A stretch of 64,000 nt of DNA from Lytechinus pictus. Lineage: Eukaryota. The first letter of the stretch is position 1; every line of letters begins with the position of its first letter. The stretch spans positions 9,674,001 through 9,738,000 of the forward strand of contig NC_087251.1 in assembly GCF_037042905.1 (NCBI RefSeq), written 5' to 3'. Of this stretch, positions 1 through 45,822 are shown in pieces. Made by a program: the position numbers and the translations under genes. The notes under the pieces were generated by a model that ran no database searches, was not told where the DNA came from, and was given only the letters and a program-made list of their open reading frames with translations.

Positions 1-625
1 CAAATCTGATCTTTCCAAGGGAAGTATTCAATATAACTTAGAAAATAACCTTAATTCGGGACCATTTTCTTTGCAATAAAAAATTATAAAACGCTTTAGC
101 TTCCGCACTTCGCGCGGGGTTCATTATTATTTAAATTTCCTCCATTTTATCCCTTTTTTGTTTGTTTTACAATCACTTTTGAAAACAAGGTTCAAAATCA
201 CAATATAGTCAAATGAATTGGAGCTGATATAGGTACTAGAGACAAGGGATGCGGCTCCTTTTTATTTTAATTTATGAAACACCGAAAGCTTCGGCACGGG
301 AGGGGGAAACTCCCCCTCCCTGCACCCACCCCCTAGGGAGCGCGCATCGCGCGCTCTGTAAGTGTTGGTATGCTTCGCGTGCATTTACCGCCCCCTCCAA
401 AATGAAATCCTGGCTACGCGGTTGGACTTTAACGTTAGACTTTAATAAAGTGAGTCGATCTCTATTCTAACTAACTGTCTGTAGCAATAGCATTGCTGTT
501 AAAAGTAAAAAAAGTCTTACTCTCAACTACACACTCTCGGTCTCAACTACGTCTCATATTTCATAATCATATCCATCATGAGTGACCATGGTCCATGCAT
601 CTCTCTAACGTTAATAAAACCTCAC

Positions 626-781
626 CTCTGTTTTCCTGTAGAGAACTGCTTCACCAAAAGCTCCCTTTCCAAGCACTCTTACAGGTGTGTACATTTCCTC
701 CTGTATCGTATCACTGCTGTTTGCACCGGCAAGGAAATTTGTTGAGCTCGAGGAGGAAAATCCCCCATCTTCTGTAGACAT
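626..781 (-). CDS. NEK9: NEK9-like serine/threonine kinase, first coding exon (gene continues beyond the left edge)
   Basis: ATG at 781 reads MSTEDGGFSSSSSTNFLAGANSSDTIQEEMYTPVRVLGKGAFGEAVLYRKTE and ends at a GTGAG donor (625-621). It has the kinase Gly-rich loop GKGAFG. EEMYTPVRVLGKGAFGEAVLYRKTE closely matches the recalled NEK9 N-terminus ([26 protein letters not shown]). Not in the ORF track. Confidence 0.88.
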
Positions 782-929
782 TATTGAACGTCTCTCTGAT
801 TTTGGAGCAATAAAATGAAACAGAGGGGACCTCAGGCTCAGGAGTATTAACTCATCAGCTGGCTTGAGTCTTGAGAAGGACTGTCACATTCAGTGTCATA
901 CAATTTTTTTACAATACAACTTAAGTAAG

Positions 930-2359: not shown

Positions 2360-3273
2360 TTAAGGTTGCCTATGAATAACTCCATAGACTTGGCATTGGC
2401 ATTGTTAATGAAGAGAGTACATTCTACAAAATGGGAGTGCTCATACTGAGCAAAAGCCTTTTCACCAAATGAGCATTTGACTATATAGCAGTTTTCAACA
2501 ACCCGGTCATAGCGTATGGAAACCGATTTCGAATTAATAATATTCTCCCCAAAATGCACTTAATTATTTTCCCCCATTTTGGAGCCATGGTTCTCAAGCC
2601 CCCCCCTTCTATATATATAAAAAAATCGTAATAGTTGAAGGCAGTTTGAAATATACTTGGTGAAAATTCGTGCATCCTATCATTTTGAACACTGTTTTGA
2701 GTCCACTTTAATTTATTAAGCCTTTACATCTACTCAAGTTCGGTGTAATCTATTAGCAATTTATGTGCTCATTATGCTGTACTCCATATCATACTCTAGT
2801 TCTATTTGCTCTATAATTCCAAATAAGCTCTCTATATAGGTCCTACTCAAGTTCAATGAGCTTATACTGCTCAATAGTCGATTTGATGTGCGCTGTTCCC
2901 AGGTTCATATATAACACCTTAACAATTCTAAATGAAAAATAAGTTGACAATAGTGAGTATAATAATCAAAGGAAAGATATGGATAAATGTTTTTTTCGTT
3001 TTTCCAAGTAAAAAACAATCAATGGTTTATTAATTGTGATTGTACTTTAGTAAGGAGGAACTTTCAACATTTCAATCACTCTTCCTTGCACTTGTTTCCA
3101 AATCGGTGCACCTGTCAATGCCTGATACGTGTTAAGGACAAGTTAGCTTTCTCTTTTCCTAATTATAATTGAACTGATAAAAGTCTCCGATAGCACGCAG
3201 ATTAAGGTGATGGGCAACAGGCCTCGGGAATGTACTTTCAGAACCAAGTAGGGCGAAGGTTGCCACCTTATGG

Positions 3274-3281
3274 TATATAAA
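3274..3281 (+). promoter_or_regulatory. TATA box of the secreted-protein gene
   Basis: TATATAAA ~95 bp upstream of ATG 3369. Confidence 0.55.
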
Positions 3282-3368
3282 TAAGAGAGAAACGATAGAT
3301 TCTATTGAATAAGCACGCAAGCAGACCCATCAAAGCTTTTCACTAAAGTCTGTGAGATCGGAACGAAA

Positions 3369-6300
3369 ATGGATGCTTCTCTCAAGTTTTTGGCGGGAGT
3401 TGCCTTGGTGATGTTTGTGTGCATCAACGGGATGATAGGACAGCAGCCGCAGACGATGGATTTGGTAGAATCCGCCAAATCCCTTCAGGATCTTGCTCAC
3501 ATTGCTGTAGTAGATGCACTATCTTCACTCCAGACAGCACTCTCTTTACTTGATTCTCAGGTATTGCCATTATATCGTTTTGAATAGTTGGTTTAATTTC
3601 TTCTTTTATTAATTTCAGTAATAATGTATCCAAATCTGCCGTGATTATCACAGATTCATTTCTGGATTTATATTTGAATTCTTAACCCTAAAAGGAATTG
3701 GCTATTTGAGATGTATTGAGGATGGGGGTGTATGATGGCCCCCCCCCTTCTGATCTCGGCCGCCGTTCGCGCGATCGCGCCGAAATTTGGCACGCACATT
3801 CCTTACCACTACAATTAAGCCAGTATAAAAAAATATTCTGAAAATAATAATTTTTTATTTATTCTAAATAAGTAATGCAAATCATCTTGAAAACATTATT
3901 TGCAAATTTAACACCCAATTTCATTTCAAATTTTCTTCTTTTTTTCCAGATGTCATTTTTGTAATCTAATGTAAATTTTCCCACAAAGAAAAATCGCGAA
4001 ATCTAATGTTTTTCTTATCTATTTCTTTGTTTTTAGAATCTCTTATGTATTTCTTGTTTTTTCATCTTTTGTTTTTCATTGTTTGTTTTTTCAATGGAAA
4101 TTATTACAGACAATTTAACAACTAAAATAAACCATATATTAATTTAGCAGACCAATTAGAACAAAAATAATCACCCTTTTACGAATTTGATCTCCCATAG
4201 ACTTTGTACACAAAGTATAAAAAGGAGCCATTTTCGGCATGACATTGTCTCGAAAAATTCACGTGGCGTCGTGACGCTGTAAATACCCGTATGTCGCGAA
4301 TTTGGTCTCAAAAGCTGCGCGAGACTTCAAGAAAAAAGTCACAATAATATCGCGGGAAGGGTCGAGGGGGCATCAGGGTCCCCAGTCCTCTCGGGTTAAG
4401 TCATTTGTAATTTGAAAATAACTCTTCATATAGATTTACAGAGTATCTAGAGATTGATTGGTCATTTAAGACAATTGTAAGGGATAAACTTTGTGCAATT
4501 TCATGTTATATTGACATCACATCTCTCAAATGGGCCTATTAAGTCAAAGATAATGCACGTTTGTGATTATTATGGGTATTCACCTATGTTGAACCTTTGT
4601 TTCCGATATTTTTTTTTCAACACAAATAGTTTTATTTTGTCTTTTTCAAAGATTTTATATTTTGACAGTGATGAGTCAAAACATCCGCGAAAATACAAAG
4701 CAAATCAGTTTTCTCAAAACAATCAAACTCGTGATGGGTCTAATTCACCTTGTTGCGATTCCTCTGTGAAATTATATTGAATGAATTACATTTCTTTTAA
4801 TCTAACATCATAGTTAATTTATGAGAATATTTATGAATAACAAATACGTCTTTAAATGAAATACCGATAAAATTCAAGAATATAGAAATAAGCAAAATTA
4901 TCTTGTTTGATCTTTATTTCATTTCCATTTAACCCATCTTTTAATACTCGTATTTCTTTCTTATTTTCTTCTCCCCTTTAAAAAAAGGCTTATAAACAGC
5001 TGCTCTATTGAGACACGGATGTTTTTAATATTTTTCATATCCTTTAATACTATGAAACAGGCTGGGTTATCAATGAACATCATTTGTAATATAATTGAGA
5101 ATAAGTACCAAGTGCCTAAAACTAAAGTGATTCTTTTAGTTTGTCTTTATTCTTTTTAGATGAGAATTAATGACTATCATTCTTATTGCATTATAGTTGA
5201 CATAATTTTTATTCAAAGACCAACTTTTATTTTCCCTTCCTCATTAGTGGTCAAAACTTGAGGCTACTGCGAAACAGAAGAATCTAAACATCGCATTCAT
5301 TACTGTACCTGCAGGTAATTCAGCAAAAAAATAATATTCGACTTGAAAGGATGCCATTATTTTGTTTAATGACATTATTATTCTGGAGAAAAAGTGATAC
5401 CTAATAAATTTAAAAAAAAAGGAAGGGCATATCATGGGATCACTGGTATAAAGAGGGGGAGGTGGAAGTGGTCGAGAAATTGAGCAAGGAAATGATAAAT
5501 ATTATAGGTGACGAGATCGAGACAAACGAACAAAAAGAGATCAGGAGGTAGAAGTCGACGAAGCAAGTGTAGACCCTCGGAAATTTAACTGTGGCAGAGA
5601 TAGTGAAGATCATTTTAAACTAGTGAATAAACAGAAAAGACAACAGGTGTTTACATCCACAGTTTCTTCGTCATTACTGAAAGTACATTGAGAATGAATG
5701 ATAAAGAAAGATAGAGAGTTGGAAAAGAGTTCAGTATCAGACGAAGAGATATAGGAAAGAAGAGTAAACCGCTTAGAAATCGATGGTGGGAATCCGTATA
5801 ATTCTACACGATATAAGTCGAAAAGAACCGAAAAAAAGTTGAAGTACGCAGAAAGGGTGGGCAGAAATTATTGTCCCATCCCCTCCTGTAACATGCCCAA
5901 CATCAGGCAAATCATATCTCCACATTTTTATTGATTTTTTTTTCAAAATCCATCGAAAATTTGCATTATTTTATTTATTTCAAGCTTAAAACGCACAAAT
6001 CCCTCTCGTGATCAGATGTCACTACCTTACCCCTCGCTTACGAGCGCGGATCTTGAACGAGGGACAGATGCCCCTTCCCCATTTGAAGACATTTTTGTTG
6101 GAATCCCCCCCCCCCTTAGTATATCCTTGATCTACACTACGACTTACAATTCTCGAGTTTTGTAGTCAAATTCAATGAGCTCTAAAACACAAACTATAAT
6201 ACGTATTACGTTTAATGTTAATTATTTGCTTCGTTCCGTTTAAGTCAATGGCTTAACCGGATCAAAATGAAAAATTACTTCAAAATCAATCGGGAAATAC

Positions 6301-9300
6301 TCTCAATCGTGCTTCATTTTTAACCAAACATGATCACCCACTCTTTATTGTGTTGTAGTCGATACACAGAACGTGTTAGCATGTCGAGCTCGATCTGTTC
6401 CCAAATACACCAATCTTCTGAAACATCTAGTGGACAAGGAGAACGAAATCGGCAACCAAGTGGAGAACGCCACCCTCATTGCCAATGCTCTTCAATTCGT
6501 TTCTCAACTTGTCGCTAATGACCAAATCCAACAAGGTAAATAATAGTGAAAACTTGAACAAAATATTTATACTTATTCCCTGTATGTATATTACAATGCA
6601 TATCATTGTACTTGCTGTACTCAGATCAGCAAATAAAGCTGGATAATAGTGGCTACCATGGGCAGCGAACTTGGAGGGGGGGGGGCGTGCGCATCCCCCT
6701 TCCTCAAATTTCGTATTTTGTACTGCAGCACTGATATGGGAAAGGTCTTCTAAGCCCCCCCCCCCCTCCCCACTCCCGGACCAAAGAACTCGCTACACAT
6801 GGTGGCTACGGTTTATTTCCGATTCGTCTAATGCCAATTCGTCCAATTGCCAACTCGTCTACTATCATTTGGTCTACCATCAGTTCGTCCACTCACCACA
6901 TGGTCTACTTTCATTTAGTCTTATGCCATTCCGTCTAATTACCAGTTGGTCCAATGGCCATTTAGTCCATTTATCATTTGGTCTAATTGGACTAAGCGTT
7001 AAATTGTGCAAAATGGATTAAAATGAAAAGGATTAAACCATCTGATTATGAGACGAAATTGTGATTAGACGTATAATTGGACCAAATGGTTGTTAGACGA
7101 AATGTTGGTGGACGGAATGGCATTACACTAAATGAAAGAAGACCATGTGGTGCGTGGACGAGTTGGCAGTAGACGAATTGGCAATTTATCGTGGTTACAT
7201 TATGAAAGTTATTATAGCACTATACTTTATAACTATGTCTCTAAGGGGGTGTTGCAAGAAAACATTTGCAATCAATCGCAAATATTCTGTTGCAATTTTA
7301 CAATTGATTGATCACTTTTAACTATAGCAAATCATATTACACTCCTTGTTTCATGGAGCACATTAGCAATCAATCGCAAATTTGCAATTGATTGCACGGC
7401 ATATGCTTGATTTCGGGAACGAAAATAGACTTGCAAATGATCGCAAGTTTCTTGCAATGCCCCATAAGTCTTTATATTTAGTTCACGTTAGGTTCGTGGT
7501 ATATTACGCCCTTTTTATTTTCAAATGTCCGAAAATGTCCAACCCCTTTGTAAATAGAAAGGTTATAGTAAAGACATTTTGTGACAGAAGAAATTTTTTT
7601 TCACCATAAAGGTACTCTCCAAGCTGTAACCACCAAGTTGAATGCCTTTATGACTGATTACAATATGTTGCTGTCAGGTTTTGAATCGTCTGTTTGCATC
7701 AGTGATAACAATGATAATATTCAGATGCTGAGGATGCTAGCTACTGGGTAAGGATTGATTTTGAAATGTGGCCCTGCCATATCTTGTGTATAAAGTCATC
7801 TTATTATTATTAATCAATTAAAAAATGAATTATCTTCGTCATGATCATCTTCATCAATTTTACTAAAAGTGGCATGTATATTTTGTTTTAATTGTGGATT
7901 TCGTTAAATTAATAATTTGAAATCTAAAAAAGGGGAACAATTTGCTAAACTTCCCTTTTCTCCTTCCCTACCCCCTCTCTCTTCTCCCCCCCCCCACACA
8001 CCCTCACACACACACACACTCTTCCTTCCCCTCTCCTATGCATTGCTCATATGCTTGTAGGTATCGTATATACATTCCGTTTTTCTCTTGTATCTCCCGT
8101 CACTCGCTCGCCCCTTTAATCATCTAACACTTCACCGTTGTCTTCCCTCATTATTAGTATTACCATGTTACTTTTCAAACCCACGATTTTCTTCATACCA
8201 ATAATTATTTCCTCCATTTTTGAGCTGCGGAGATAATTTTTCATGTTTGCACTCATGCCATTATGATTTCATTTTTGATAAAAAATAAATCCCTGATATT
8301 TATAACATATATAATTTCTAAGAAAATAAATTAATTGTTTTGTTTTGTTTCTTCATCTCAAATGCAGGCAATGTCCAAATGTGAGTATGAGAAAGCGCAG
8401 ATGGAAAGACTAATTATTGCTGATTCCAATCACAATGTATTAAATCTTTATCAACTATTCATTTTATACAGACACCTTTAAATGTATCATGATCAATCCG
8501 TATTTTTTAGAGAGAGTCTAGCATGTCTAAACGCAAAATAAGCCTCTATATTCTTTTTATCAAATAACAAGTTCAAGACATATTTTAGATAATTTATATG
8601 TCTTCTTGATAATCGTTTGTCTAGTATAGTGCTGTGTATTTGCATCATTTTCTAAATTAATTTTCATGACATTATTGTCTAAAATTCATTTATGATATTT
8701 ATATCAATCTTAATTTGCTTGAATTTTTTTAAAGTATTTAGTCACGCAATGTATAAAATAATATGGCCTATAGTGTATTAGCTGTTCTTTTCTTAATTAT
8801 TTTTCCCCCTTCTCATTACAGGGTGACTGCAGAATGAAGAAAGGGTGAATATTTTATTTCTTACTTTCTTGTCATTTGTATAATGTACGCAATCTTTCTA
8901 TCCCAATTGCAGTTCTGATTAACATATCAAACTAAAAAAAGGGTAATGATACAAGAAACTTTGGTGATACTTGTATTTGGACGTTTGCGAGTATGGGAAT
9001 AATGATGTGCATTTTTAAATATCGCGATTGTTCCTTATCCTTAATTTGATTTTATCTGAATTGAAAAGCTTATTGTTTCCTTTTTGTTTTTTGTTTTCTT
9101 TAATTCTAATTTGCAGCTTCTGTCTTGAAGTAAGTATTGCTTTCATTTCATCAGAAACGACTTGTTCGAATATTATCATTATGGCCAGTAGCACATTCCC
9201 CATCCTTCTATAAAGACCCCACATGCAATTATTTTTCTTGATCCAATAAATCGTATTGAAGATCCGGGGGCCGTTTCCATAAAGCTGTTCGTAAGTTAAG

Positions 9301-10033
9301 ATCGACTTTAAGAACGACTGGTGAACCTTTCTTACGCGCTAAACCATCGCCAATGGTGTATAGCATTTACCAAAAGAAAGGATCACCAGTCGTTATTAAA
9401 GTCGCTCTTATCTTACGAACAGCTTTATGAAACACACACCAGGTTTTGTCAATCATAGAAACAAGTACAGACCAATCTCCTTTATTTTTAAAGTAGTTTC
9501 ATAGTCACATCCGATCTTTTTTTTTTACCCCAGTCAACAATTCCAGCATCGTCTGCATAACCATGATAATGAGACGATGATCACCCAACTAAAGCTATTT
9601 TGTATTGGGGGGTATCATACTGGCATATGAGCTTGGGGAGGCACTTGACCCCCCACAGTAAACGATTAAGAAACACCAAGAAAAAGATTAAAAGGAGAAT
9701 GAAAGAAAATGAAGAGAAAGGGTGAACATTTTTGTTCTCTCACGATTTTGAGAAATTTGGGCCAATTCGCCAAGTTGTGCCCCTCAAATATTTTTACTTA
9801 ATTATCACAACACTGAATTGATAGCTAGCATTGAAGCGATATGAAACTGCATCTGTAATAAAAAGAGAGACAGTAATTATCCTACATTGTTGTATAAGGA
9901 GGGCAAATGCATCGACGCTGATTATGTTCCTAATGTGAATAGCAACCTCTACAGTTTGACTTATTGCCTTATTTATCTCCCTGATTTTCGTGGGTGATAA
10001 AGTTCACAAATGTCTGTTCCATTTAGAAGTACA

Positions 10034-10080
<47 letters not shown>

Positions 10081-10221
10081 AAAGTTATACATGTACAACA
10101 GCATTGGCAACTCTTTTTATTTAATTATTGTAAAGAAATGGATGAAGAGAACAATGGTAGGCGTAGCTTAAATCAAGGTTCCCCAGAGCTATCTACCCTT
10201 TGGAAAAATTGGTGATGATTG

Positions 10222-10263
<42 letters not shown>

Positions 10264-11591
10264 AAACATTATAATAATTATTAATGGCACACAGTAGTTG
10301 GAATAACGAATTACTTTTTAAAAAAGTCTTGAGCACAATAATTGCTTTGAATCCTGCATGGAAGGCCAGAACATGAGATAATATTCAGGGCCCACAGCCG
10401 TGAATGAACGATTAGCTAATACGATTTGAACTGCTTGCTATATTGCATGGGGGAACAATGTATTCTATGTTCTAATAACACATTAAACCCTTTCATTTTT
10501 CTATCACGTTCCAGGGCAGTTGTGTCAAGGTAAGTTTCATATTTTTATATTATACTAGTTCATCATGTTTATAATAACTTTTATTCAAACTTTTCTTTTA
10601 TTATAGATTAACCTAACATGTTAACTATGTGATCTAGCCGATATGGGGTAGAGACGAAGTATTCATTTCAGTAACTTATTTGAGAGTTAAACTTCCTCGA
10701 TTCTTTTTTATGCCAATATGTTGCATTGGTAAAACTTTACGGGTTTGATTGTAATATTATGTCTTTGAATATTGTTTGAGTTTTTGATGCGTATATGACA
10801 GAGAGGCGTATCATCAACATTATAACAACTTTCTTTGTTTTATGATAACTAAATAACTTGTCAGAGCTGACTGATTTAAAGAAACAATTCCCCAATATTC
10901 GAACCTCGGGTCTATGCAGGACTTTCTTTATTTTTGTAAATTATGATCTTCTATTCTAAATACGATTTGTCAGTGCCATTCTTCTTTTGTTTAGCTTATT
11001 ATATGCAGCTGGTCGTATTCTTTTATCATTTCTGATTTTTGAGGTATCCTCTTAACCTTTTCAGGACCTTGATGTAAAACTGTTTTTATACTGATCTTGT
11101 ATATTTCAATATTCCTTATATATCAGGTGGGTGTTTCATAAAGCTGTTCGTAAAGTTACGCACAACTTTGCGCACGACTGGAACATGTTTTAGGTCCTAA
11201 CTCAATTACATAGGGATATATCACTTGGCATGAGAAAGGGTTACCAGTCGTGCGTAAAGTCACTCGTATCTTAATACAGCTTTAAGACACACTCACCTGA
11301 TTTATAGCCTGCAAATCTTGCTTTAATTGCTTTGATGAAGAGTTCCCCCCCCCCCCCCGAATTGTTAAGAATTTTCATGAAAATTTAAAAAATCATTGTT
11401 AGCAACTGTGTGTTCTTAAGAAGGGATTAATTAATTACTGTATGGAATGTTTAAAACAATAAATTAACAATGATTTTATGAATGAAAAGATGCATTCATA
11501 GTGGATTCTTTTCGATAACATTGCTTTTGTTTGTATTACAGAACGATCTATCACCTGCATTGTAGATATCTGTGACAATGAAGAACTTTGA
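3369..11591 (+). CDS. Unrecognised secreted protein, ~166 aa, 5 coding exons (3369-3560, 5248-5314, 6359-6535, 10515-10529, 11542-11591)
   Basis: All exons have AG/GT boundaries and compatible phases (0,1,1,1), totalling 501 nt. Translation: MDASLKFLAGVALVMFVCINGMIGQQPQTMDLVESAKSLQDLAHIAVVDALSSLQTALSLLDSQ/WSKLEATAKQKNLNIAFITVPA/VDTQNVLACRARSVPKYTNLLKHLVDKENEIGNQVENATLIANALQFVSQLVANDQIQQ/GQLCQ/ERSITCIVDICDNEEL*. Hydrophobic signal peptide and 4 Cys in the mature part. Exons 1-3 are well supported; the 3' exons are less certain. Confidence 0.72.
3686..4395. mobile_element. piggyBac-like MITE in intron 1 of the secreted-protein gene
   Basis: TTAA|CCC...GGG|TTAA termini; a second copy lies at 1632-2359. 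Confidence 0.8.
6810..7190. mobile_element. MITE with inverted arms built from short TCGTC(T/C)A subrepeats
   Basis: Left arm TGCCAATTCGTCCAATTGCCAACTCGTC versus right arm GACGAGTTGGCAGTAGACGAATTGGCA. Confidence 0.6.
7245..7463. mobile_element. Short MITE (Harbinger-like ends)
   Basis: GGGGTGTTGCAAGAAA...TTTCTTGCAATGCCCC terminal inverted repeats. Confidence 0.6.
9266..9440. mobile_element. Palindromic MITE (related to 11124-11299 and 53082-53226)
   Basis: CATAAAGCTGTTCGTAAG...CTTACGAACAGCTTTATG long inverted arms. Confidence 0.75.
10040..10259. mobile_element. Dispersed element flanked by (TA)n on both sides
   Basis: 10130-10217 is the near-exact reverse complement of ~45679-45766; both copies sit between TA microsatellites. 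Confidence 0.7.
11124..11299. mobile_element. Palindromic MITE
   Basis: CAGGTGGGTGTTTCATAAAGCTGT...ACAGCTTTAAGACACACTCACCTG. Confidence 0.7.
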
Positions 11592-12137
11592 TAAGTAGAG
11601 CGTGTATATCAAACATGATGGGAAAATGTAAAATGAAAACATGTATACATATATTCTATGTAAAGGTAGTCATGTTTGTGACGTAGTTCCATCTATGCTT
11701 TAAGCATGTTATTTATTTCTGAGACATTTTCAATATATCTTGACTGAGCCGATAATGATTTGGTAACAAATTTATCAATGATCTCGTTCACTGCTGCTAT
11801 AAACTTACATTGACCATTGAAATAATGTATCTTTTTTGTGAAGATTAAACAATGAATCTGGTTAAAAAAAAACACCATAAATGGAGCACAAGATGATCTA
11901 CATCCGTGATATTTTGTGTCTGCCTAATTACTAATAAACATGAAGCATGCATCTTTTGGATGTCTATCTATGTAAAAAAAGGGAAGTCAGTATGTTTTCT
12001 TTTCTTTATTTTGTATGATAAGGTACCGAGTCATCGCTGTATTATACAGGGGGGGGGGGGTGACAGGGTGGAGAAAGGTCACCTAAATGATTTTATTCCT
12101 TTCCGAAGAAAAAATAGGGGTGTTATGTAGTGACATA

Positions 12138-13056
12138 CAGAGTGAGTCAGAAAAAATGTCCCACTTTTGTAAAGTTGAATTATTTAAGATATGAATATTT
12201 AATCATTAGTTTCATGATATGTCTTGATAGAGGTATCCTCCCAGTACATTCAGGTACCTTTTTCATTTGATCCCCTGCACGCATGACTGAACAGCGGACA
12301 ATCTTTAGAAGACTGTCAGATCTCACTTGCGCCAAGTTACAGGGTGGGGAATAAAACACTCTTTTGAACCTTGCATACTCGGTGACCATAAATGACCTAT
12401 GTTGTGGTGTGAATGATTCGTGTACTTTTGCTACTGTAAAAAGAGGCTCAAGTGACTGCTGCCAAATCAGGCAAGCCCTTTTATAGGCAAGTGCAACAAA
12501 AGCACAGACATCCATTGTAAATTTTCATTGTTAACCAACAAAAGACATAACCAGCATATTGGATTTATGTGCACTTGATGATGATGATCAAGATGATGAC
12601 AATGAGGATGATGATGATGATATGATGGTGGTAATGAATGTGTTTTAAGGGGAAAGATTGTCGGGAATTGCCACTTAAACATTCAGCGATCTTGCTAAAA
12701 ATCAATGCTTAATCAGAAAAGAGAAAATTATGAACCAGTTATTACCATGTGTGTTGTGTGTGTTTGTGTGAGCGTGTGTGTGTGTGCGTGTGTGAGCATG
12801 CCAGACTGTCTGTCGACTGTCTTTGTCTAAAGCACTGTTTTATTCATCACCCAGTAACTTGGCGCAAGTGAGATCTGACAGTCTTCTAAAGATTGTCCGA
12901 TGTTCAGTCATGCGTGCACGGGATCAAATGAAAATGGTACCTGAATGTACTTGGAGGATACCTCTATCAAGACATATCATGAAACTAATGATTAAATATT
13001 CATATTTTAAACAATTCAACTTTACAAAAGTGGGACATTTTTTCTGACTCACTCTG
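12138..13056. mobile_element. Tc1/mariner-type non-autonomous element with ~210-bp TIRs
   Basis: TA|CAGAGTGAGTCAGAAAAAATGTCCCAC...GTGGGACATTTTTTCTGACTCACTCTG|TA. Near-identical arms explain the mirrored ORFs 12180-12515 and 12823-13047. Internal (GAT)n and (TG)n tracts. Confidence 0.88.
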
Positions 13057-19547: not shown

Positions 19548-19786
19548 TCATCTTTGTACGTTCCTCTCTCTTCTCTGTCTCTCTGCTTCATCCGATTTCT
19601 GTGAAACAAATCGCTCATTATCATCCCAAGGTATGGAGATCTCATAGCCAACAGGTACATTGCCCTCTTTACGTTTGCCCAGAGCGGCTAAGATGACATC
19701 CACACCAGCGTTGATAGTTGATTCCTGTTGGGATGGGGATCCTAACTGTGGATTCACTTCAACCAAGTCCATTGAGCTCAGCATAT
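19548..19786 (-). CDS. ARG: Arginase last coding exon
   Basis: DMLSSMDLVEVNPQLG...AALGKRKEGN...RNVQR*; AG acceptor at 19788-19787. Confidence 0.93.
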
Positions 19787-22700
19787 CTGAGATAATGGGA
19801 ACACATTGTCACATTATATCCAATTATTCAAGTATGTTGAAATGATAAAGCATCCAACAGATAATTCCACAGATAACTAGTGGGCAAGAGGAATGTTCAT
19901 GGGGGTGCAAAAAAAAGGGCAACAAAAACCTGAGAAGACTATTAATGTGAACAACCCAAAACATGCGAGGTAATTGGAGTCAGATGTTGGATCTTAATGC
20001 TTACCTGAGAACTCTTCAACCTTGATCCTCCTAACTGTAATTGTGCAACATTTTTTCCAACAAAGAAACATAAGGATAAGACATTTTTGGCTCTCTTACT
20101 TCTTTTGTATATCATTGGGACATTTCAATTTGATAGATTGACGTGGATACTAGAAAATAGTTACTTATCATTTTGTCAAGGATATTTATGATTTCATAAA
20201 ATTTCCTCCCCAGATATATAACAACACCATACTAATAGATTTCAGAAAAAACTTGATATCATTTGGAATGAAACGTGCTGCATTTGTATGTTTCAGTGAG
20301 TTTCATAACTGAAGTTGATAGTGGTTTCATGAGGATTCTATGGAGTAGATTCATTACCTGTCTGGGCTATTTCCTCTGCAATATATATGCCTTCTCTGTA
20401 AGTGAGTCCTCCAAGAACTAGAAAAAAAAAGAACAAGAATAATCTTGCCATTCATTGTAGTGATAACAACAGTAAAATAATAATAGTTAACACTGGTATA
20501 CAATGAACGTTTGATTTAATTTTAATGTAAAATATGTGGTTTAGTTATGGGTAGTGAAATGTAAAACAGTGGATGGGATGGGTTTAATGTATGTTGATGT
20601 TTAGTAGTTTCATGTCAGGAACTCATGTTCATACAACTATCTACTTATGTAATTCAAAATTCAAAGAATATAAATTCCAAAAAATTAAGACAATTTTGTT
20701 TTTTTAACACATTTATAATTAAAGGATATTTCCCTGAGCATCTTATAGAAAATGCTGATGTAAAATTATGACAAAAAATAGGCATAATAGGCTGAATTGT
20801 TACAGGCAGTAAAATTAACAGCGAAGACAAACAATAAGAATTGCTAAACTAAATGTGTAATGATTCCATTTTATTTTACAATACATTATCACAGGAATAT
20901 ATACATATGTGTTTAATTTGTTTGCAATTTGACAGTTCTATCTAGTTTTGTCAACACGCACTTCAACAGTATAAATACACTTGCTACAATAAACTGTGAA
21001 TAAAACCCATTAATGGGAAGATAACACCTATACCAAATACATTTCAGTACAATAGAATAAGTTTTACAGATATCCGATTGTTGGTCTAGCTAAGAAAATA
21101 TTTACTGACTTAAATAAAATCCAATGAAGAAGATATGTACATCCTCTTCATGTAGATGAAATTTTCTTAAAACAATATGCATAAAAAAATATGAATGCAG
21201 AGCTACATGTACAACTACAAAAAAATACCAGGTCAAGATTATAATGGTACATGTGAAAAGGAAAAAAAAAACTATGTCAACATACATATACAGTAGTTCC
21301 TTAGGCAATATATTTTTTCTTTTCTCTCTCTCTAGTAAGTAGGATAATATCAATAGTAACAAATAAGAATCAAGTTGAATGACAGAGAGTAATGGCATGC
21401 ATGTTGAATAGCATTCAAGGATCCTGATTCCAAATCTGAATGATGCCACTCATGCAACCTTGAGTATTTTCTGCAAATTGGCAAAATCCAATATGGCCAC
21501 CAAAATATGCAAATTCCCCATGGAAATCACAAAACTGCCCAAACATTGACTATAATATGCCTGTAATTGTGACCCAGGAGTGAAATATCTGAAAACATGA
21601 TTACAAAAAGAATAGTTATTTCCTTGATATTCAAAATGGCTGCCATAGACCCCTGTGTACTCTATGATGTACAATATGAAAGAGAAAAAATAATTTTCAC
21701 AAGAGTGAGCACTATTGCATGCAATTGTGATCTACAAGTGAGGTACTGTCTGAAAACATGATTGCTAATGAAATATATCATTACTAATGTCATGTATGTG
21801 ATAAATAATATATTTTGATATTCCAAATGGCTGGCATACATCCCTAACGATATCAACATTTTGAGTGGGAACAAATAATTTTGACAAATTTGGATTTGCT
21901 TGATACAAAATGCCTATAATTGTGATGTGAGAGTGAAATATACTGTCTGGCAAAACATGATTTCTAAGCCATTTAGGTGATAAATGCCATATTTTGACAT
22001 TCAAAATGGCTGCCGTAGGCCCTAAAAGTATCATGTACAATACAAGTGGGGAAACCACACTTTATCACAAGAGTGGGCACCATAAAATGGATGTCATTTA
22101 TCACCTACATGACACAAGAAATTACATATTTCATTAGCAATCATCATCATGTTTTAAGAAAATATTTTACTCATAGATCACAATTACATGCATTTAGTGC
22201 TCACTTTAATGAAAACTATTTTCCCCAATCATATTGTACTTATTAAAGTATACAGGGGTCTATATCAACCATTTTGAATATCAAGAAAAGATATATTTTG
22301 TCAAAAATCATGGTTTTCAGACATTATTTTACTCCCGCTTCACAATTACAGGCATATAAAGTGTTTGCAACTGTATGATTTTCATGGGTAATTTGCATAT
22401 TTTGGCGGCCATATTGGATTTTGCCAATTTGCAGAAAATGCTCAAGATGGCATCATTCAGATTTGGAATCAGCACCCTCAAATTGATAAGGAACCACAAA
22501 TAACATTGTATTCATCAGAAAACAAGGTTTGGTCCATTCTCTATGGGGCCTAGCCTGGACTAATAAGATAGATTTTGTATTCTTATACAATCATATTTTG
22601 AAATGAAGTTGTCGTAATATTTACACCTATATGGACACATAGATATCACATTGAAGAGGAAATTAAAGAATAAATTAGAAATAAACAGACAAATAAGTAG

Positions 22701-25700
22701 ATAAACAAAGGAAAGAACAAAAAAATTAAAAGCCTTAACACTGCAGTGAGCAGCAAAGAAATTTATTTCTTGTCTAATACAGAAATTTCTTGCTTCTATT
22801 CCCAGTTTGTGCAGGGAGGAGGGGGAGGGTTTAATATATATATATTTTTTTTCAAGAATTGTTAATAATGAACTATTTACCTGGTGTGCCGGTACTAGCT
22901 GATACACCCGGATCCAGAGAATCAATGTCAAAGCTCAAGTGAACTGGACGTGTTCCTCTGTAGAGAAAGAAGGTCACTGACACTTACAACAGAAACATTC
23001 CTTGGAATACCCCCTCAAACAGGATTATCAAACAATAAACTCAAACCATGTGTACATAGTCAATAATAATGTCATAAAAGGATGTGTTATCTTCGTCATT
23101 TAAGCCTTTGAATTGACCACTGACAGTCATCTATTTAACAATTTAGAATTGATTAGCTTTGATAAAAGAAAGGTAAAAACAAAACAAAGGGGTTTAAAGA
23201 AAGGGGAATAATGAAGTTGCCTCCTATACAGCCCCTCCCCCTAAAAAAATATTTTAATAAAATGCAAATCACTGCACTAATTTAAAGATAATAAGTAATT
23301 CATATGATGAATGATAGCAAAATCACATGGATATTCTATTGCATTTCAAATGTCACAAAGATTGCATCAAAATATGAATTATGTAAATGTAATTATGTAA
23401 ATGTATCTAGTTGCACTTATCCTTTTATTTTATTCATTTTCAATCATATATTAAATCTGTGCTGTTTAAATTTTGTTGCAATAAGATGATTCTATAGGAC
23501 AAGGGGCCTTTTACATAGATGATACAATAAGTTGTTCAATTAAAAATAACTGTTAAGTCTATAGATGACAAGTCATGTCCTAAAAGTTACAATTTTAAAT
23601 ATCAAGCATATCAAGCACATTATCTCCTGCCTGCTAACTTACAAAATAAAGATTTGTAAAAAAAAAAATCTTATAATACACTATTTATACATCCCTATTT
23701 TCTTACCTTGGATTTATCATATCCATAGCTCTTGCAAAGACCTCAGCCACGCCATACTTCTGAACATCATGAATAGAAAATATCTGGATTCCATGCTTCT
23801 CTAAAATATGTCTAGATTCAAGAATTAAAGAGAGAATATATTTGTAAATGATAAACCCCTCTAAAATTTGCATTGACTTCAGGAGTAATAAATGAAGTCT
23901 AATATGAAAGATTATGAAAAATTATTTCAGATTTTAATTCAATCAAACATAAAAATTTAGTAGATTCATTGCATAGACTTAATGATGCAGGTATTGTATG
24001 CTTGGAAAGTCAAAAGTCAGTCAGATCTTTCTCAAAAAGCCCCTCTCCCCTTCATGAAACAGCCCTTGTCACTCACCTCTCTCCTACATCCACATCCCGG
24101 AGTCCAATATAGGCGATATCTTTACATGAGATACAAGAATCTAACCAATCAAAGTTTGGAAGTTTAGGCAAGTAATGACGCAGTTCATGACAAACAAATG
24201 AAAGCACCATGCCGTGGAGGTGGCCGGACGGAGAGGTCTGAGGTACGTTGATGTCGGCATGTGCGTCGACCCACAGGACGCACAGGTCCGGTCTTGATCG
24301 GGTGTGTCCGTGGAGGGAACCGATGGTGATGCCGTGGTCTCCACCGAGAGTTACACAAAGCTGGTCCTGTTTCGTAATGTCTTCTACTCCTTTTGATATC
24401 TGCAATGTATGGAGACGTCGATATAATTGGTTCGTTCAGCATTTTTTACAACTATTAGAATGCTCTGTTTCAGGAATCTGTGGCTCCTACATGTACATTA
24501 TATTCCCTACCTCTCAAAAATATTACATTATTGTAATATAAATTCTGCCAAGTACTACCATAATGAAATTTATATTACAGTACTAGCAAATATGAATACA
24601 GCATGATAATAGAAAAGATTGTGGGGATCAGTCTAATATATAGAAAGTATGTAAGTATTTCTTTATGTCTCATACAGAAGAGGAGTGAAAAAACAAGTGT
24701 AAACAAGGTAAAAAGATATCTAAAAATGGTAGAGAGGTAATCTTGGGTTGTACCTTTTTAAGTGCTTTACCAAGGAATGGTGCATTTTTGACATGATTGA
24801 CAGTAGCCGTCTCCTCATCCTGAGCGGGGAAGACAAGATCTCCATGATCAATTACTCTATGACCTGAATAATGTAAAAGATTGATTTAATTCAATAGTTT
24901 GACCAGTCTCCTGCCTCTAAATATTGATATCTATGATTGACCTACTGCATAGAGTACCAAAATAGGTAAATAAAGTTGCAGATAATCTACATACAAGATC
25001 AACATATTCAAAAGTGTAATATTTTAACCAGGTTTTGACAGCATTAAATTTTCAATGTTTTGCTGTTAAGCAACAAATTATGTAGACAACCATATGGTAA
25101 TGGAGTATCCTTTTTGCAGGACCAATGGGGTATGAATAAAAAAGGCAGAAAATTCATATCAACAAGTAAAGAGCCTCTGGCAGTCTTGCCTGCATTACGC
25201 AATTCACTATAGCAGCCGTACTGACTTTGAAAATGACAATAGAATAATTATTCACAAATAACACCAATCATATGATAATAAATTACTATGTTCATTGACC
25301 CTAAATGACACTTGACCTTGATCATATGACCTAAGACTTGTGCAAGACTTGTGCAAGATGATAAGTGATACTTGATTACCCCTATGTCCACATTTCATGA
25401 AGTGTATCCATAGACTTTTAAAGTTATGATGGCAATTAAAAAAATACCCCAATTTAGCCAAAGTTCACTGACCTCAAATGACCTTTGACCTTGGTTATGT
25501 GACCTGAAACTCAGGCATGATCTTAGTAATACTTTATTACCCTTATGTCCAAGTTTCATGAACTAGGTCCATATACTTTTTAAGTTATGATGACATTTCA
25601 AAAACTTAACCCTTCGGTTAAGATTTCAATGTTGACGCAGCTGTCGCCGCCGTCCGAAAAGTATCTCTGCTTTGAAGGCGAGACAAAAATAGAAGAGTGA

Positions 25701-28700
25701 TAGTTGGGAGGTGTGTCTAGATCTCCTTTGCATCGTACATGAATAGGTCAAGAAATGCTTGCTCTACTTTAGGAACAGTACTTTAGGGACCTAAGTTCTA
25801 CTTTCTAGAGCTACTGTAAAAGGTCTGTGAGAATATTTTATTTCCTTATATCAAACGAACAAGCAAAGAGAAATGAATCAACTATGAATTGTATGCTTAG
25901 CAAACTGACAGTTCATATTTTTGTATTATACACGTATCTTATTCAGAACTTATAGGTAATATTCAAAATTAAGTAATATTTACATGTCACAATATGACAG
26001 TTGCCAATGTTTGCATTGGTCTTGGCTTTGTTTAAACAACTTATTTTTTTTCAAGTAAAATATTACAATGAACTTTGGTCCAATATCTTTGAGGAATGGA
26101 TGCTTTGATGAAATATCACATGGTCCTAGTCTCATATCACATGGTCTTCCATACACAGAAGCTCAACAAACAATTTATATGTATCAATTATAAAAATTGC
26201 CTTCGATAAAATCCAATGAAACAATATATCCCAGGCCATTTTCCCTTGAGTTTGTATCTTACCTCTATTTTACACTTTTACATGTAGGTACATGTACAGT
26301 GTCAATCACAAAGAAAAATACACAAACATTTTATTTCGAGAAAAAAAAAGTATGACCCAGCTTTTAAGGTAACCTGGCAACCCTAGACAAAAAGCCATAT
26401 TCTCCAGTAATCTTCTTCTTCATGAGAATATAAAGAAATCCCTACCCAATTTATGGATAAACATTCATTCCATCTGTGAACAACCTAAAAATGAGTTTGA
26501 ATGGGATCCAATGAAACCATCCCAAAATGAGGAATTGGCAGAATGAGCACAGAAATACTGGAGAGTGACAGGTTTTTTTACTCTTTATCCAAGTAAGAAG
26601 AACAAACATTCTCTGATGTGCTTATCTGTGTTGACAATGTCTTGCTTGCATTAGCTTTTCAGCTTTAGATTTCATTATTTCACATTGTTACATGTAGTTT
26701 TTCGTAAACTTATGAGACCTCAATCTACGACTTCCAATATTAGAATTTAAATATCTTACCAAGCTCTTCAATGGATGATATCAGTCCAGCATCTCTTAAA
26801 ACTGTTGGCCCATATACCACACCATCTTTGTCCTAGATTACAAAGAAATAATTAAGAAAACAAAGAGTCTGTATGAATTATTATCTTTATACTCCAATAA
26901 CAGTGGGTACATACAGTATATGAAGTGCCATAGGGGGAGTCAAAACTTCTCCAATTTTTTTAAGGTTTTGGTATTTCATTATTTTATTTCTGTTAACATA
27001 GTAGAACCCAACATTCTGAATATGCATATTAAAAAAAGACTGCTTATCAACTCATCATATTCACATCTCAACTTCAGCTAAATAGACCGGGGGCTGGGAG
27101 AGTTTATTCAGCTGATCAGGTACATATGGTTTTATGGTCCCATCGTGTTGGCATGATATCAGTGGTCAAGAAAATGTGTTGCTGCCGGGTCATATCCTGT
27201 ACGGAAGGCCCAGAGGACCCCATTTTTGTTGGCCATCTTGGATTTTTCATGAAAATCAATTATTTTCATATTTTTGCACAGATGATTGGAAAATGTTAAA
27301 TAAATACGCATTTCACAATGATTTAGATAGTAGAAATCGATTGCAATTGTTTTCTGGACAGTCCAGTTAATATTTTTGGAAAATATATGAGAATTTAAGC
27401 CAAAATTTCCATGTTTTGGGTCAAAAATGTGCATGTGCATTGATATTTTTCTGTTTTGTCATTAATATCAACAAGTAATGCAAAATATCAGTATTCAACA
27501 CGAAAGAGGATATACAAGAACATTGATATGCTCCATGACAGTATTAATGTCTTAACTTGCTTAGATAAAGGGAAAATACCTCCAGATGTATTCCCCGATA
27601 TTGCGATAAAATGACACCAAAAGTAACCTCCATCACCTATTCACACTAGTGATACCGACTACAATGCGCTCGCTGGCATGCCTTTCAAAAGAGCACAATA
27701 GACTCAGTCGGTCTTGCTTCGCCTTTGTTGATGTGACTAGCACGCATGAATGCATGTAATGAGCGTAGTACGGTAATAGAAAATTGTATATTTCATAATA
27801 TGTGTAATAGGGCAAAAGGCGTTTTCTACATATTAAAGCAACTTTTATGTTAATGAAACCTCTTGGAAAAGTTATGGGAGGCATTGCTCTGCATGTCGCA
27901 AGCAATTACGTTAGGGCACCTTAAAGCATAGTCCCACAAGAGCCTGTCGAAGGTACCCCACCTTTATCCGTAGCTTGACTATCAAAATATCTTTCTTTTG
28001 AAGCCCTCAATGTGGCAAAATGATGTTTCGGCTAGGTAGAAAAACAACTTTAAAAACAACTTGAAATCGCTTGGAGACGAAAGAGTGGGTTTTTCTCTAT
28101 ATAAGCTTAATATAAGGAAGTTAGGGCACAGCAAACCCTACCCACTAAGGGGGCTGCCCCAAGTCACCAAGCCCCTTTTGAAGAGGGTAGGCGTCAAAGT
28201 GCCAGCACTTCTTTATTATAAAGAGCCTACTCTTTCATCCCCAGGCCCAGGGGAGTTCATTAAATAAAAGTGGTTTTACTTCATAGCAGAAATATCTTTT
28301 TGCATCAATGGGGACTAAACACTGCAAATTTTCCAATAAAGAGGAAAATAGGCAAAAAGGTGGGGCGACTTCAGCAGCCCCTGAATTGAGTAGCGTCGAT
28401 GTGCCAGCACTTTTTTGCATATAGCTGATAAAAGAAAGCATTTTCTTTCATCTTTTAGTGGTTTCAAAAAATGAAATTGGCTTCACTATATAGCAGGAAT
28501 GCTCTTATGCCTGAACGAGGGGGTCAAAAACTGTGAAATATTCAATAAAGTGGGGAAATAGGCAAAAGGGTGGGGAGAATTTGGCAGCCTCTGACGGGGG
28601 TAGGCTTCGGCGGGCGAGCACGTATTCAAATGAAGCTGATAGAGAAAATCCTACCTTTTTGTCTCCCAGGAGTTATAAAACAATAAAAGTGACTTTTCTG

Positions 28701-31357: not shown

Positions 31358-31679
31358 TTCGCATTTCCTTCAAAACATCCAAGTATATATCTAGAAGAAA
31401 TGAAATGACATAATAATCAGGTTTCAGCAAGTAACTTTAATAATTAGACAATTCATATTGATGATGAATTCATACTTCAATCACAATGCATTGATGGATT
31501 AAAGTATAACAAAATGAAGATCTCATCAGCTGGAGTGATCAAACCAAGTTGTAATTTATCCAAAAACATCATTTGGGAAATAAAGAGAAAGAACTGGTCA
31601 TGATCATGGCATGCATATTAATGTCAGTTAACTTTGAAACACTGAAACTTATTCTGGATTATTTTGACATTAATTGAAA

Positions 31680-43227: not shown

Positions 43228-45346
43228 CAGTGCGTATCAATAAAAAGTTTACACTTTGAAAAAGCCATGGGAAATAAAAAATATACAACATGTGGGTGAT
43301 TTTTTCACATACAATCTTTTTTTTTTTTTTTTTTTTCTTTCAATCTTTATTGATCAAAAAATAGGTATATACTTGTCAAGACAGATTCATAAAACAAATT
43401 AGATATCAAATCTCCACTTTTTAAAATGTACAGGTAATTTACCATTTTTCTTCGCCAAAACATATTCAATATCCTTAATACCTTTGATACGAGCTTTAAA
43501 TTCCACAATATTGGGGTTTTTGTTATTAAATTTACAAAAGTGAACATAGTATTTGAAAGCAAGGAAAATGAATGTTAGAAAATTATCACCTTGAATACCA
43601 AAGACCTTTACAAAGGGGGAAAGGATAATATTCGAATGTTGTTTTTGGTTTATTATAGATAAAAGATCATCCCATACAATGTTAACCACCGGACAATCAC
43701 AAAATATATGTATATTGTTTCAGGGTCTCTTTTACAGAATGAACAGTTTGGGGAATCTTTTCTCTTGATTTTAAATAAACATGCATTAAGGGCAATTGTC
43801 TTATGAAACACCTTGAAATAAAATGATCTGAGGCGGCTATCAATAGTACTCTTAAAATTCAGCATATGTATTTTCTCCCAGTCTACTTTGTCGTTAGAAG
43901 GGCACGACTCTTCCCAAAAGGAAATACAATTATCTGGGAGACATTGATCGAAAAATATCGAGTATGCATAACTGCTAACTTTCCTTTTCTCTAATAATTT
44001 ATCTACAACTTCGGAATGGATATCTAAATCTGGATTATTATGCCAATCTAACCATGGACCAGGAATATTTTGTAATAGAAAATTATATTTTCTTCTATCT
44101 TTTGCTGAAATTTCAAAGTCGAGAACTAACTCTTCAAATAACTTGTAACCTGGATGGGGTGGATTAAAGAGATCACTTATAAAAAACTATGCCCTTATTA
44201 AACCAATTTTCATAAAAGAAAAATTGTTTAGATTTGGATCTGACATTTCTATTAAACCAAATACAATGTGAATAACCCAAATACAAATAATCATAACCAA
44301 ACTCTTTTCTGGAAGCTTTATCTCTAAACAAGTACCAGGTCCGGATTGAGTCTGCAAGTAGGGAACAATTTAAATTATTCAAAATTTGTTCAGGTGCATG
44401 GGCCTTCCACAAAATGTCCCTCATTGCATTAAATTTTTTCACATACAATCTTTGGTTTGGGTCTCATCTATCCAATGAAATTAAAAGTTTTGACAGAATG
44501 TTACACTTGAGTGAGCACTGTCCATTTTTGTAAAGCTCGCAGAAATCTGTTTGCGCAGAAATGCTCGTTTTCACGCTGTGTCAAGGGGAAAGGGCGAAAT
44601 CAAACTTACCCTGCGAAACATTTCTCATACATTTCCCTTGCACTTTTAGTCAATTGAAATAAAACAGATACATTCAAGCATTTTGTGACAATTTTGCCAC
44701 CCAAATTGATATTTCAACTCATAGTAAGCACAACCTTTACCCTTTTTGTGCCAGCTGGATCTGAGGACATAACTTAATCTGAACAAAAGTTTATATCAGA
44801 CATCTCCAGCATTTTTTCACTAAGTTTTTATTATTTAAAGTGGGTTTACATTTTATTTTTCATTTAATACTTGTTTCTCCACACTTTTTCCAAGCTTGAC
44901 AATGATTAACAAAATGAAAATCAAGCCTAAGCCATTTCATGTAAATCACAGCTCATTGTAAAGCAAATATCGTCACGATGGCCTCGGTGTGTGGGGAGTG
45001 GGGTGGGGCGCAATGTACTCTTCGAAGTGTTTTGGACAAGGAAACAAGTTAAAAAGGGTAAAAGATATCTTCAAATCAATTTTACTAGCTAAATTCAACG
45101 TGTTCTTCATGATTAAGGTCTACTTTTCTTCGCATAACTATTTCAAAGTTCTGCGCAAATCATTTTTCACTAACTTTTCAAAAGTAAGTGGTGCTCACTC
45201 AAGCGGAAATGATTTTCGACAGTTATATCGTCATTTGCTTAAATCGATCTGTACCAATGTAAAAATGTGGAAAAATCTTCAGGATATTACAAATGTATAA
45301 TTTTACAGAATTTTTGATAAGTGTAAACTTTTTTTGATACGCACTG
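43228..45346. mobile_element. Tc1/mariner-type non-autonomous element nested in the foldback
   Basis: TA|CAGTGCGTATCAA.AAAAAGTTTACACTT...AAGTGTAAACTTTTTTTGATACGCACTG|TA. Confidence 0.88.
43320..44433 (-). mobile_element. 5'-truncated L1/Tx1-type LINE with poly(A) tail and 20-bp TSD
   Basis: TSD TTTTTTCACATACAATCTTT at 43300-43319 and 44434-44453, and poly(T) on the + strand at ~43317-43340. Degenerate ORF2 C-terminus: IWFNRNV, LRSFYFKVFH, SPNCSFCKRDPET..HIFCDC zinc knuckle. Confidence 0.9.
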
Positions 45347-45641: not shown

Positions 45642-45822
45642 ATATATATATATATATATGATCGGCATTTTTTTCGGCATCACCAATTTTTCCAAAAAGG
45701 GTAGATAGCTCTGGGGAACCTTGATTTAAGCTACGCCTACCATTGTTCTCTTCATCCATTTCTTTCACACAATATATATATATATATATATATAATATAT
45801 ATATATACATATATATGTATAT
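45642..45822. mobile_element. Second copy of the (TA)n-embedded element
   Basis: Reverse complement of 10130-10217, flanked by TA runs. Confidence 0.7.

What the first reader, a model, noticed from the sequence alone, without database searches (positions are those of the whole stretch)
3274..11591. Orphan secreted helical protein (cytokine/hormone-sized) hidden across five small exons
Seen: a TATA box, a signal peptide and five phase-compatible exons give a 166-aa ORF that the ORF track misses. The mature part has long stretches with amphipathic-helix periodicity (DLVESAKSLQDLAHIAVVDALSSLQTALSLLDSQWSKLE; YTNLLKHLVDKENEIGNQVENATLIANALQFVSQLV), an N-glycosylation sequon (NAT) and four Cys. I recognise no family. 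Inference: the size and pattern fit a helical-bundle ligand. Class I helical cytokines diverge too fast to be found by sequence, and their ligands are poorly known in invertebrate deuterostomes.
Basis: partly seen in the sequence, partly recalled or inferred. Interest (0 to 1): 0.72.

Follow-up and report, generated by a model that had tools for sequence, protein, structure and literature searches.

The report
Speract-gene relative with ring-shaped peptides
This sea urchin gene is not an orphan cytokine but a relative of the gene for the egg's sperm-attracting peptide speract, and its tail, hidden in tiny exons, may release a small ring-shaped signal peptide of unknown target.

Summary
Exons 1-3, the TATA box, the hydrophobic N-terminus and the NAT sequon check out. 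The better model has nine GT-AG exons: an overlooked 136-nt exon and four micro-exons of 13-23 nt. It gives 219 aa, 179 identical to a Strongylocentrotus purpuratus protein. The protein is not an orphan. It is a paralogue of the sperm-activating peptide (SAP, speract) precursor: E 1.7e-25 for the S. purpuratus orthologue, 34% identity over residues 22-206 for the window model. It lacks speract repeats. Its micro-exon tail encodes two six-residue cysteine rings; the second follows Lys-Lys and is 10 of 10 identical in S. purpuratus. AlphaFold models of two relatives give a three-long-helix bundle with no cytokine among the listed fold matches. Best reading: a secreted precursor that releases a disulfide-ring peptide acting on a cGMP-linked receptor, probably on sperm. 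Processing, tissue and activity are inferred; RNA support for the junctions is indirect. New variant of a known kind, directly testable with a synthetic peptide.

The parts
3274..3283 (+). TATA-like box, 95 nt upstream of the start codon
   Evidence: sequence; function inferred
3369..3560 (+). coding exon 1 (residues 1-64): signal peptide and start of long helix 1 with the family's invariant H-x-A-x-V motif
5248..5314 (+). exon 2 (67 nt; residues 65-87): end of helix 1 and extended crossover
   Evidence: tblastn 91% to P0001
6359..6535 (+). exon 3 (177 nt; residues 87-146): conserved Cys95, P-K-Y motif, helix 2, NAT sequon at 123
   Evidence: 98% to P0001; contig of run X1 matches 6391-6538 without differences
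   Evidence: tblastn 81% to P0002, E 6e-23; family profile E 1.7e-16
8368..8380 (+). micro-exon 5 (13 nt): first half of cysteine ring 1 (Cys193)
   Evidence: best of 6 AG..GT candidates of this length against the P0002 tail
8822..8844 (+). micro-exon 6 (23 nt): second half of ring 1 (Cys198) and the Lys201-Lys202 candidate cleavage site
   Evidence: best of 6 candidates
9117..9129 (+). micro-exon 7 (13 nt): first half of ring 2 (Cys205)
   Evidence: best of 6 candidates
10515..10529 (+). micro-exon 8 (15 nt, phase 0): second half of ring 2 (Cys210) and Lys212
   Evidence: best of 10 candidates, 5 of 5 residues identical to P0002
11542..11565 (+). last coding exon (7 residues and stop)
   Evidence: contig of run X10 starts matching at 11540 after 22 unmatched letters
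11933..11938 (+). candidate polyadenylation signal AATAAA (ATTAAA at 11844 is an alternative)
   Evidence: sequence scan; not tested

Best explanation
A nine-exon sea urchin gene (genus Lytechinus, probably L. pictus) for a 219-aa prepro-protein of the sperm-activating peptide precursor family, paralogous to the speract gene. The signal peptide sends it into the secretory path (inferred from hydrophobicity). A three-helix pro-domain with two conserved cysteines (homology shown, fold predicted, disulfide inferred) carries a tail of two tandem units, each with a six-residue cysteine ring. Cleavage at Lys201-Lys202 and at Lys212 would free a 9-10 residue disulfide-ring peptide (residues 203-211/212). 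This is inferred from the speract precursor, whose repeats are separated by single lysines. Ring 1 has no basic residue directly before it and may stay on the pro-domain or come off as a longer piece. The free peptide most likely acts as other SAPs do, on a cGMP-linked receptor of the sperm flagellum, as a second egg-derived cue beside speract (inferred by homology only).
For: phmmer of the S. purpuratus orthologue P0002 against 1.84 billion proteins gave 10 hits at E<=0.001; all 6 that carry names are sea urchin proteins, among them the speract precursor P11761 (E 1.7e-25, 35%). The window model aligns with the speract precursor at 34% over residues 22-206 and with a Diadema SAP precursor at 32% over 5-196. 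In the family alignment the peptide region sits at the same place after the second conserved cysteine: Diadema precursors end in Arg plus a two-cysteine nonapeptide, the Lytechinus paralogue LOC129257573 in Arg plus one six-residue ring, speract precursors in Lys-separated repeats. Two rings with a basic pair between them recur in P0002 and in a 51%-identical relative P0005. Unit 2 is 10 of 10 identical in S. purpuratus; it matches the LOC129257573 unit better than 999 of 1000 shuffles. Core identity to the S. purpuratus orthologue is 86%, against 65% between the speract precursors of the same two genera, so the gene is under strong constraint. SAP function itself: PMC7093112 and PMC6669438, passages.
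Against: No data on tissue, cleavage or activity. Neither raw RNA run laid (X4, X7; about 6% and 25% read, tissue not known to me) had depth in the bins of exons 1, 2 or 3. No junction was shown directly. Unit 2 shares 5 of 10 residues with a speract repeat, but 90 of 1000 shuffles did as well, and neither unit matched the Diadema nonapeptide ungapped above chance. Unit 1 lacks an adjacent basic site. Lytechinus and Strongylocentrotus already have separate speract orthologues, so this gene may have another job. One Diadema member (P0012) ends six residues after the pro-domain, which hints that the pro-domain may act alone, unless that model is truncated.
Confidence: 0.5

Rival explanations
1. 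Same precursor and same processing, but the ring peptide is a somatic paracrine or neuropeptide-like ligand for another receptor (for example another membrane guanylyl cyclase) and is not aimed at sperm.
For: Slower divergence than the speract precursor (86% against 65%) and an invariant unit 2. A low-depth contig of exon 3 in a run of unknown tissue.
Against: The family members with a known role are egg-derived sperm ligands (passages; names). Speract itself evolves under purifying selection in Diadema (PMC7299941, passage), so slow change does not argue against a gamete role.
Confidence: 0.22
2. The tail is not released. The whole protein is a secreted helical-bundle protein with a disulfide-stabilised tail that works as an egg-coat component, a carrier or a partner of the speract pro-protein.
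For: Invariant residues cluster in the pro-domain (11 invariant columns in 12 sequences). Unit 1 has no adjacent basic site. P0012 has no tail.
Against: A basic pair between the rings is kept in the window model, P0002 and P0005. The far tail is predicted with low confidence and unpacked (pLDDT under 50), as expected for cleavable peptides.
Confidence: 0.17
3. The pro-domain is itself a helical-cytokine-type ligand for a class I cytokine receptor, and the SAP precursors descend from such a cytokine.
For: Secreted, about 150-residue helical bundle with a long crossover after helix 1, which recalls the first half of the up-up-down-down topology (recalled). No homologue outside sea urchins was named, so its origin is open.
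Against: Both models show three long helices and only an 9-10 residue fourth helix. Intron phases in the pro-domain are 0, 1, 1, unlike the mostly phase-0 pattern I recall for class I cytokines. Homology to SAP precursors explains the protein without this idea.
Confidence: 0.08

Closest known systems
Speract (SAP-I) precursor of S. purpuratus, P11761 / NP_999771.1, and its Lytechinus orthologues XP_041455568.1 and XP_054774497.1
   Same: Signal peptide, homologous pro-domain (34% over residues 22-206), two conserved cysteines, peptide units after basic residues at the C-terminus.
   Different: Separate clade. No linear glycine-rich repeats and no PF08250 hit in the orthologue P0002, where P0008 scores E 2.1e-9. 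Two cysteine rings instead.
Diadema sperm-activating peptide precursors (AJT34992-AJT35008; XP_072163138.1)
   Same: Homologous pro-domain (30-35%) and a cysteine-ring peptide at the same position after a basic residue. I recall the terminal nonapeptide as SAP-IV; no paper read confirms it.
   Different: One unit with an eight-residue ring at the very end, against two six-residue rings and a seven-residue extension here.
Lytechinus paralogue LOC129257573 / LOC121406555 (uncharacterised)
   Same: 39-40% core identity, Arg followed by one six-residue ring that matches both window units above shuffles (3 and 1 of 1000).
   Different: One ring only, longer spacer; itself uncharacterised.
RefSeq models of this very gene in relatives: XP_054759503.1 (L. 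pictus, 87 aa), XP_041467760.1 (L. variegatus, 146 aa), XP_030855042.1, XP_011671754.1 and XP_003723585.2 (S. purpuratus, 192, 221 and 235 aa)
   Same: Orthologues, already labelled 'sperm-activating peptides(-like)' by the source.
   Different: 3 of the 5 models stop before the ring tail, 1 breaks off in ring 2, and only XP_011671754.1 has both rings.
SAP-IIB (alloresact) class of cyclic egg peptides
   Same: From recall only: nine-residue peptides with a six-residue disulfide ring of the same spacing.
   Different: Recalled from non-camarodont urchins. Sequence and precursor were not found in any call, so this is a lead and not a test.

Membership tests
Sperm-activating peptide precursor family (echinoid) | Homologous N-terminal pro-domain with two conserved cysteines | tested here: met
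   E 1.7e-25 to P11761 via orthologue P0002; window model 34% over 22-206; Cys95 and Cys174 align with the conserved pair
Sperm-activating peptide precursor family (echinoid) | N-terminal signal peptide | tested here: met
   hydrophobic stretch at residues 5-23, peak 2.85; hydropathy only, SignalP not available
Sperm-activating peptide precursor family (echinoid) | C-terminal peptide unit bounded by basic residues | tested here: met
   unit 2 lies between Lys201-Lys202 and Lys212; unit 1 has no adjacent basic residue
Sperm-activating peptide precursor family (echinoid) | Ovary expression, release into egg jelly, activation of sperm | not testable with these tools
   the four runs laid were of tissue unknown to me and gave only two low-depth exon contigs among the pieces shown
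Speract (SAP-I) proper | Multiple linear glycine-rich decapeptide repeats (PF08250) | tested here: not met
   no repeats in the window; no Pfam hit for P0002, hit for P0008; unit 2 similarity to a repeat not above chance
Speract (SAP-I) proper | Orthology with the speract gene | tested here: not met
   window groups with P0001 and P0002 (97/99); speract precursors form their own clade (100/100)
Cyclic SAPs (SAP-IIB, SAP-IV types) | Short peptide closed by one disulfide ring | tested here: inconclusive
   two six-residue cysteine pairs are present; the disulfide is inferred; the SAP-IIB pattern is recalled and was not found in searches
Class I helical cytokines | Four long helices in up-up-down-down topology | tested here: inconclusive
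   models of two relatives show three long helices and a short fourth; coordinates not available to check topology; best structural matches are generic bundles, Z 9.4 (rmsd 2.7, 98 aligned) and 8.8 (rmsd 2.8, 98 aligned) to a plant Rx coiled-coil domain
Class I helical cytokines | Mostly phase-0 introns between helix-coding exons (recalled, a supporting rather than strict feature) | tested here: not met
   intron phases 0,1,1,2,0,2,0,0
Class I helical cytokines | Binding to a class I cytokine receptor and JAK-STAT signalling | not testable with these tools
   no receptor in hand

The most novel reading that the evidence does not exclude
Camarodont urchins (Lytechinus, Strongylocentrotus), known as speract users, keep a hidden second egg-to-sperm channel of disulfide-ring peptides, made by this gene and, in Lytechinus, by a third paralogue. 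The ring unit is the ancestral SAP of one echinoid precursor family, from which the linear speract repeats arose by loss of the cysteines and amplification. The unit was missed because it is split over 13-23 nt micro-exons.
Probability: 0.3. Interest if true: 0.72.

Novelty: new variant of a known kind. Interest (0 to 1): 0.5.

Why it matters
Sea urchin sperm are the best-studied model of sperm chemotaxis, and in L. pictus and S. purpuratus the work centres on speract (PMC7093112, passages). A conserved paralogue with a ring peptide gives a second candidate ligand in the same laboratory species, testable with one synthetic 9-10 residue peptide. It also places linear speract and cyclic Diadema peptides on one shared pro-domain, with a candidate intermediate. 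If the peptide acts on somatic cells, it is a new ligand for an orphan receptor. The shared pro-domain has no Pfam family, and most RefSeq models of this gene lose the tail. The homology label already exists in RefSeq, which limits the surprise.

Tried and rejected
Five-exon 166-aa model: rebuilt and rejected. My first nine-exon coordinates were off by one and were corrected. Pfam: 0 families for P0002, P0001, P0004. PDB by sequence: one weak hit at E 0.16; TTK kinase at E 0.02-0.5 with the profile, taken as chance. ESM Atlas: no usable hit for P0002 or P0022. Foldseek: no match at E<=0.001 for either model. No helical cytokine among the 50 rows shown in either wide search, out of 48,161 chains aligned, nor among the Foldseek rows shown; absence does not exclude the family. 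Homodimer prediction of the P0005 pro-domain: no answer, score 0.00, alignment not used. Run search: no RNA holder listed on record. The read lay at 90% likeness was swamped by intronic repeats. No second family copy in the window: the next profile hit after the four exon frames had E 0.17 among 2,903 frames. Rfam: 0 matches in 3000-13000. Exons 5/7 and 6/8 show little DNA likeness (5 of 13, 6 of 15), so a duplication origin of the two rings is not shown. Earlier scan findings: none. Paper searches for the SAP classes or this paralogue found nothing relevant. Jagadeeshan 2015 and Darszon 2008 are not held. Synteny was not tested: no genome is held, and the NEK9 label of the upstream neighbour remains untested.
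Full report
Observation. The TATA-like box at 3274, the start at 3369 and exons 3369-3560, 5248-5314 and 6359-6535 are in the sequence with GT-AG ends and matching phases. A search with exon 3 returned 2 hits among 5 candidates: L. variegatus XP_041467760.1 (98%) and S. purpuratus XP_011671754.1 (91%, 221 aa), both named sperm-activating peptides(-like) by the source.

Corrected gene model. tblastn of the 221-aa protein (P0002) showed a further exon near 7612-7747 (81% identity, E 6e-23). Four micro-exons follow: 8368-8380, 8822-8844, 9117-9129 and 10515-10529. Each was the best match to the P0002 tail among 6, 6, 6 and 10 AG..GT stretches of the same length (scores 22, 21, 24, 28 against runners-up of 5 or less). 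A scan without homology for 10-25 nt stretches with a pyrimidine tract and a consensus donor found exactly these four in 7748-11541; I set its rules after seeing the sites, so it is not blind. The nine exons give 219 aa with one stop, cysteines at 18, 95, 174, 193, 198, 205 and 210, and 179 identities with P0002. An L. pictus model of 87 aa differs at 2 of the first 86 residues, so the window is Lytechinus, probably L. pictus (inference).

RNA. Of 24 runs listed I laid 4. Intronic repeats dominated and no exon junction was among the joints shown (295 hidden). Two contigs are informative but indirect, both from runs only guessed to be RNA. An X10 contig (depth 4.6) starts matching at 11540 after 22 unmatched letters; this fits splicing into 11542 from exon 8, but equally from exon 3. 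The raw runs X4 and X7 had no depth in the bins of exons 1-3. A 51%-identical relative, P0005, comes from a 2,017-base contig as one reading frame that includes both rings, which suggests a spliced transcript (inference).

Family. phmmer of P0002 against 1.84 billion representatives gave 10 hits at E<=0.001. The 6 named ones are all from sea urchins: the speract precursor P11761 (E 1.7e-25), its L. variegatus orthologue, the L. variegatus model of this gene, L. pictus LOC129257573 and two Diadema proteins. A profile search added a cluster of 11 Diadema SAP precursors. A tree of 13 pro-domains puts the window with P0001 and P0002 (97/99), apart from the speract clade (100/100), the LOC129257573 pair (100/99) and three Diadema SAP precursors (98/96); deeper branches are unresolved and long branches meet. 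Lytechinus thus has at least three paralogues. Core identity between Lytechinus and Strongylocentrotus is 86% for this gene and 65% for speract. The alignment has invariant His, Ala, Val, Ser and Leu in helix 1, one invariant and one nearly invariant cysteine and a P-K-Y/F motif. Pfam has no model for this domain; PF08250 hits only the speract repeats.

The tail. After Cys174 the window model has two six-residue cysteine pairs (193-198, 205-210), Lys-Lys at 201-202 and Lys at 212. P0002 and P0005 have the same two rings; LOC129257573 and its L. variegatus orthologue have one after Arg; Diadema precursors have one eight-residue ring after Arg; speract precursors have linear repeats separated by Lys; P0012 has no tail. 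In 12 ungapped comparisons against 1000 shuffles each, unit 2 matched P0002 10 of 10 (0 shuffles), the LOC129257573 unit (1 shuffle) and an L. pictus speract-type repeat weakly (12 shuffles). It did not beat chance against S. purpuratus speract (5 of 10 identical, 90 shuffles), the Diadema peptide (947) or P0005 (210). Unit 1 matched P0002 and P0005 (0 shuffles) and LOC129257573 (3), not the speract or Diadema proteins. The link between ring and linear units therefore rests on position in the precursor more than on peptide similarity. I recall SAP-IV (Diadema) and SAP-IIB as disulfide-ring peptides, the latter with this ring size; no paper I could read confirms that. Resact is modelled with a C1-C8 disulfide in PMC4137060 (passage).

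Structure. AlphaFold2 was run on relatives, not on the window's own protein. P0002 with 12 sequences: pLDDT 67.9, helices 30-75, 105-140 (kinked) and 146-174, a long crossover at 76-104, a 10-residue helix at 181-190 and a low-confidence tail. P0005 with 20 sequences: pLDDT 79.4, same layout. The best structural matches are generic bundles (Z 9.4 and 8.8, rmsd 2.7-2.8, 98 residues, plant Rx coiled-coil domain), below the level the tool calls meaningful for helical bundles.

Mechanism. Shown: gene structure by homology, family membership, tail layout, conservation. Inferred: secretion, disulfides, cleavage at Lys-Lys and Lys212, and action of the freed 9-10-mer on a cGMP-linked receptor, probably on sperm (0.5). 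Rivals: somatic ligand (0.22), uncleaved coat or carrier protein (0.17), cytokine-like pro-domain (0.08).

Literature. Ten searches of the held library found no paper naming six accessions of this gene or its paralogue or using phrases such as speract paralog or speract precursor. The library lacks most subscription journals and the older SAP literature, and supplements are not searched, so this is weak evidence of novelty. PMC13666137 had no occurrence of the terms (67). Jagadeeshan 2015 was seen only as a title in reference lists.

Verdict. A real gene with a wrong first model; not an orphan and probably not a cytokine. It is a speract-precursor paralogue with a micro-exon-encoded tail of two cysteine rings. 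New variant of a known kind; interest 0.5.

Noticed in passing
window 611-883, minus strand: Exon-like frame with a kinase-type glycine loop, pointing away from this gene.
   Followed up: partly
window 19548-31369, minus strand: Arginase gene pieces; PF00491 E 4.4e-25 for 24076-24435.
   Followed up: partly
window 59252-60256, plus strand: Large exon of an amiloride-sensitive sodium channel (DEG/ENaC) gene, PF00858 E 5.6e-26.
   Followed up: partly
window 10087-10244: Intronic repeat with a copy at 45642-45782. In run X4 it draws very deep, one-sided coverage (bin depth about 9,700 against 6), probably from an abundant RNA made elsewhere. No Rfam match.
   Followed up: partly
window 3710-4344 and 1635-2272: Two 80%-identical copies of a 650-bp repeat, one in intron 1 and one upstream.
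   Followed up: no
window 43653-44533, minus strand: Broken retroelement-like frames; weak zf-RVT hit below the curated cut-off.
   Followed up: no
protein P0007 / P0016 (LOC129257573, LOC121406555): A third Lytechinus paralogue, unnamed in RefSeq, ending in Arg plus one six-residue cysteine ring: an equally good candidate peptide precursor. Isoform P0017 has another tail.
   Followed up: partly
protein P0025 (Diadema antillarum, 415 aa): SAP precursor joined to a further 200-residue domain that I recall as farnesoic-acid-methyltransferase-like; probably a gene-model fusion.
   Followed up: no
window exon 1, residue 53: Ser where most family members and the L. pictus model have a nearly invariant Pro; P0005 also has Ser, so it is probably a tolerated variant.
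   Followed up: no
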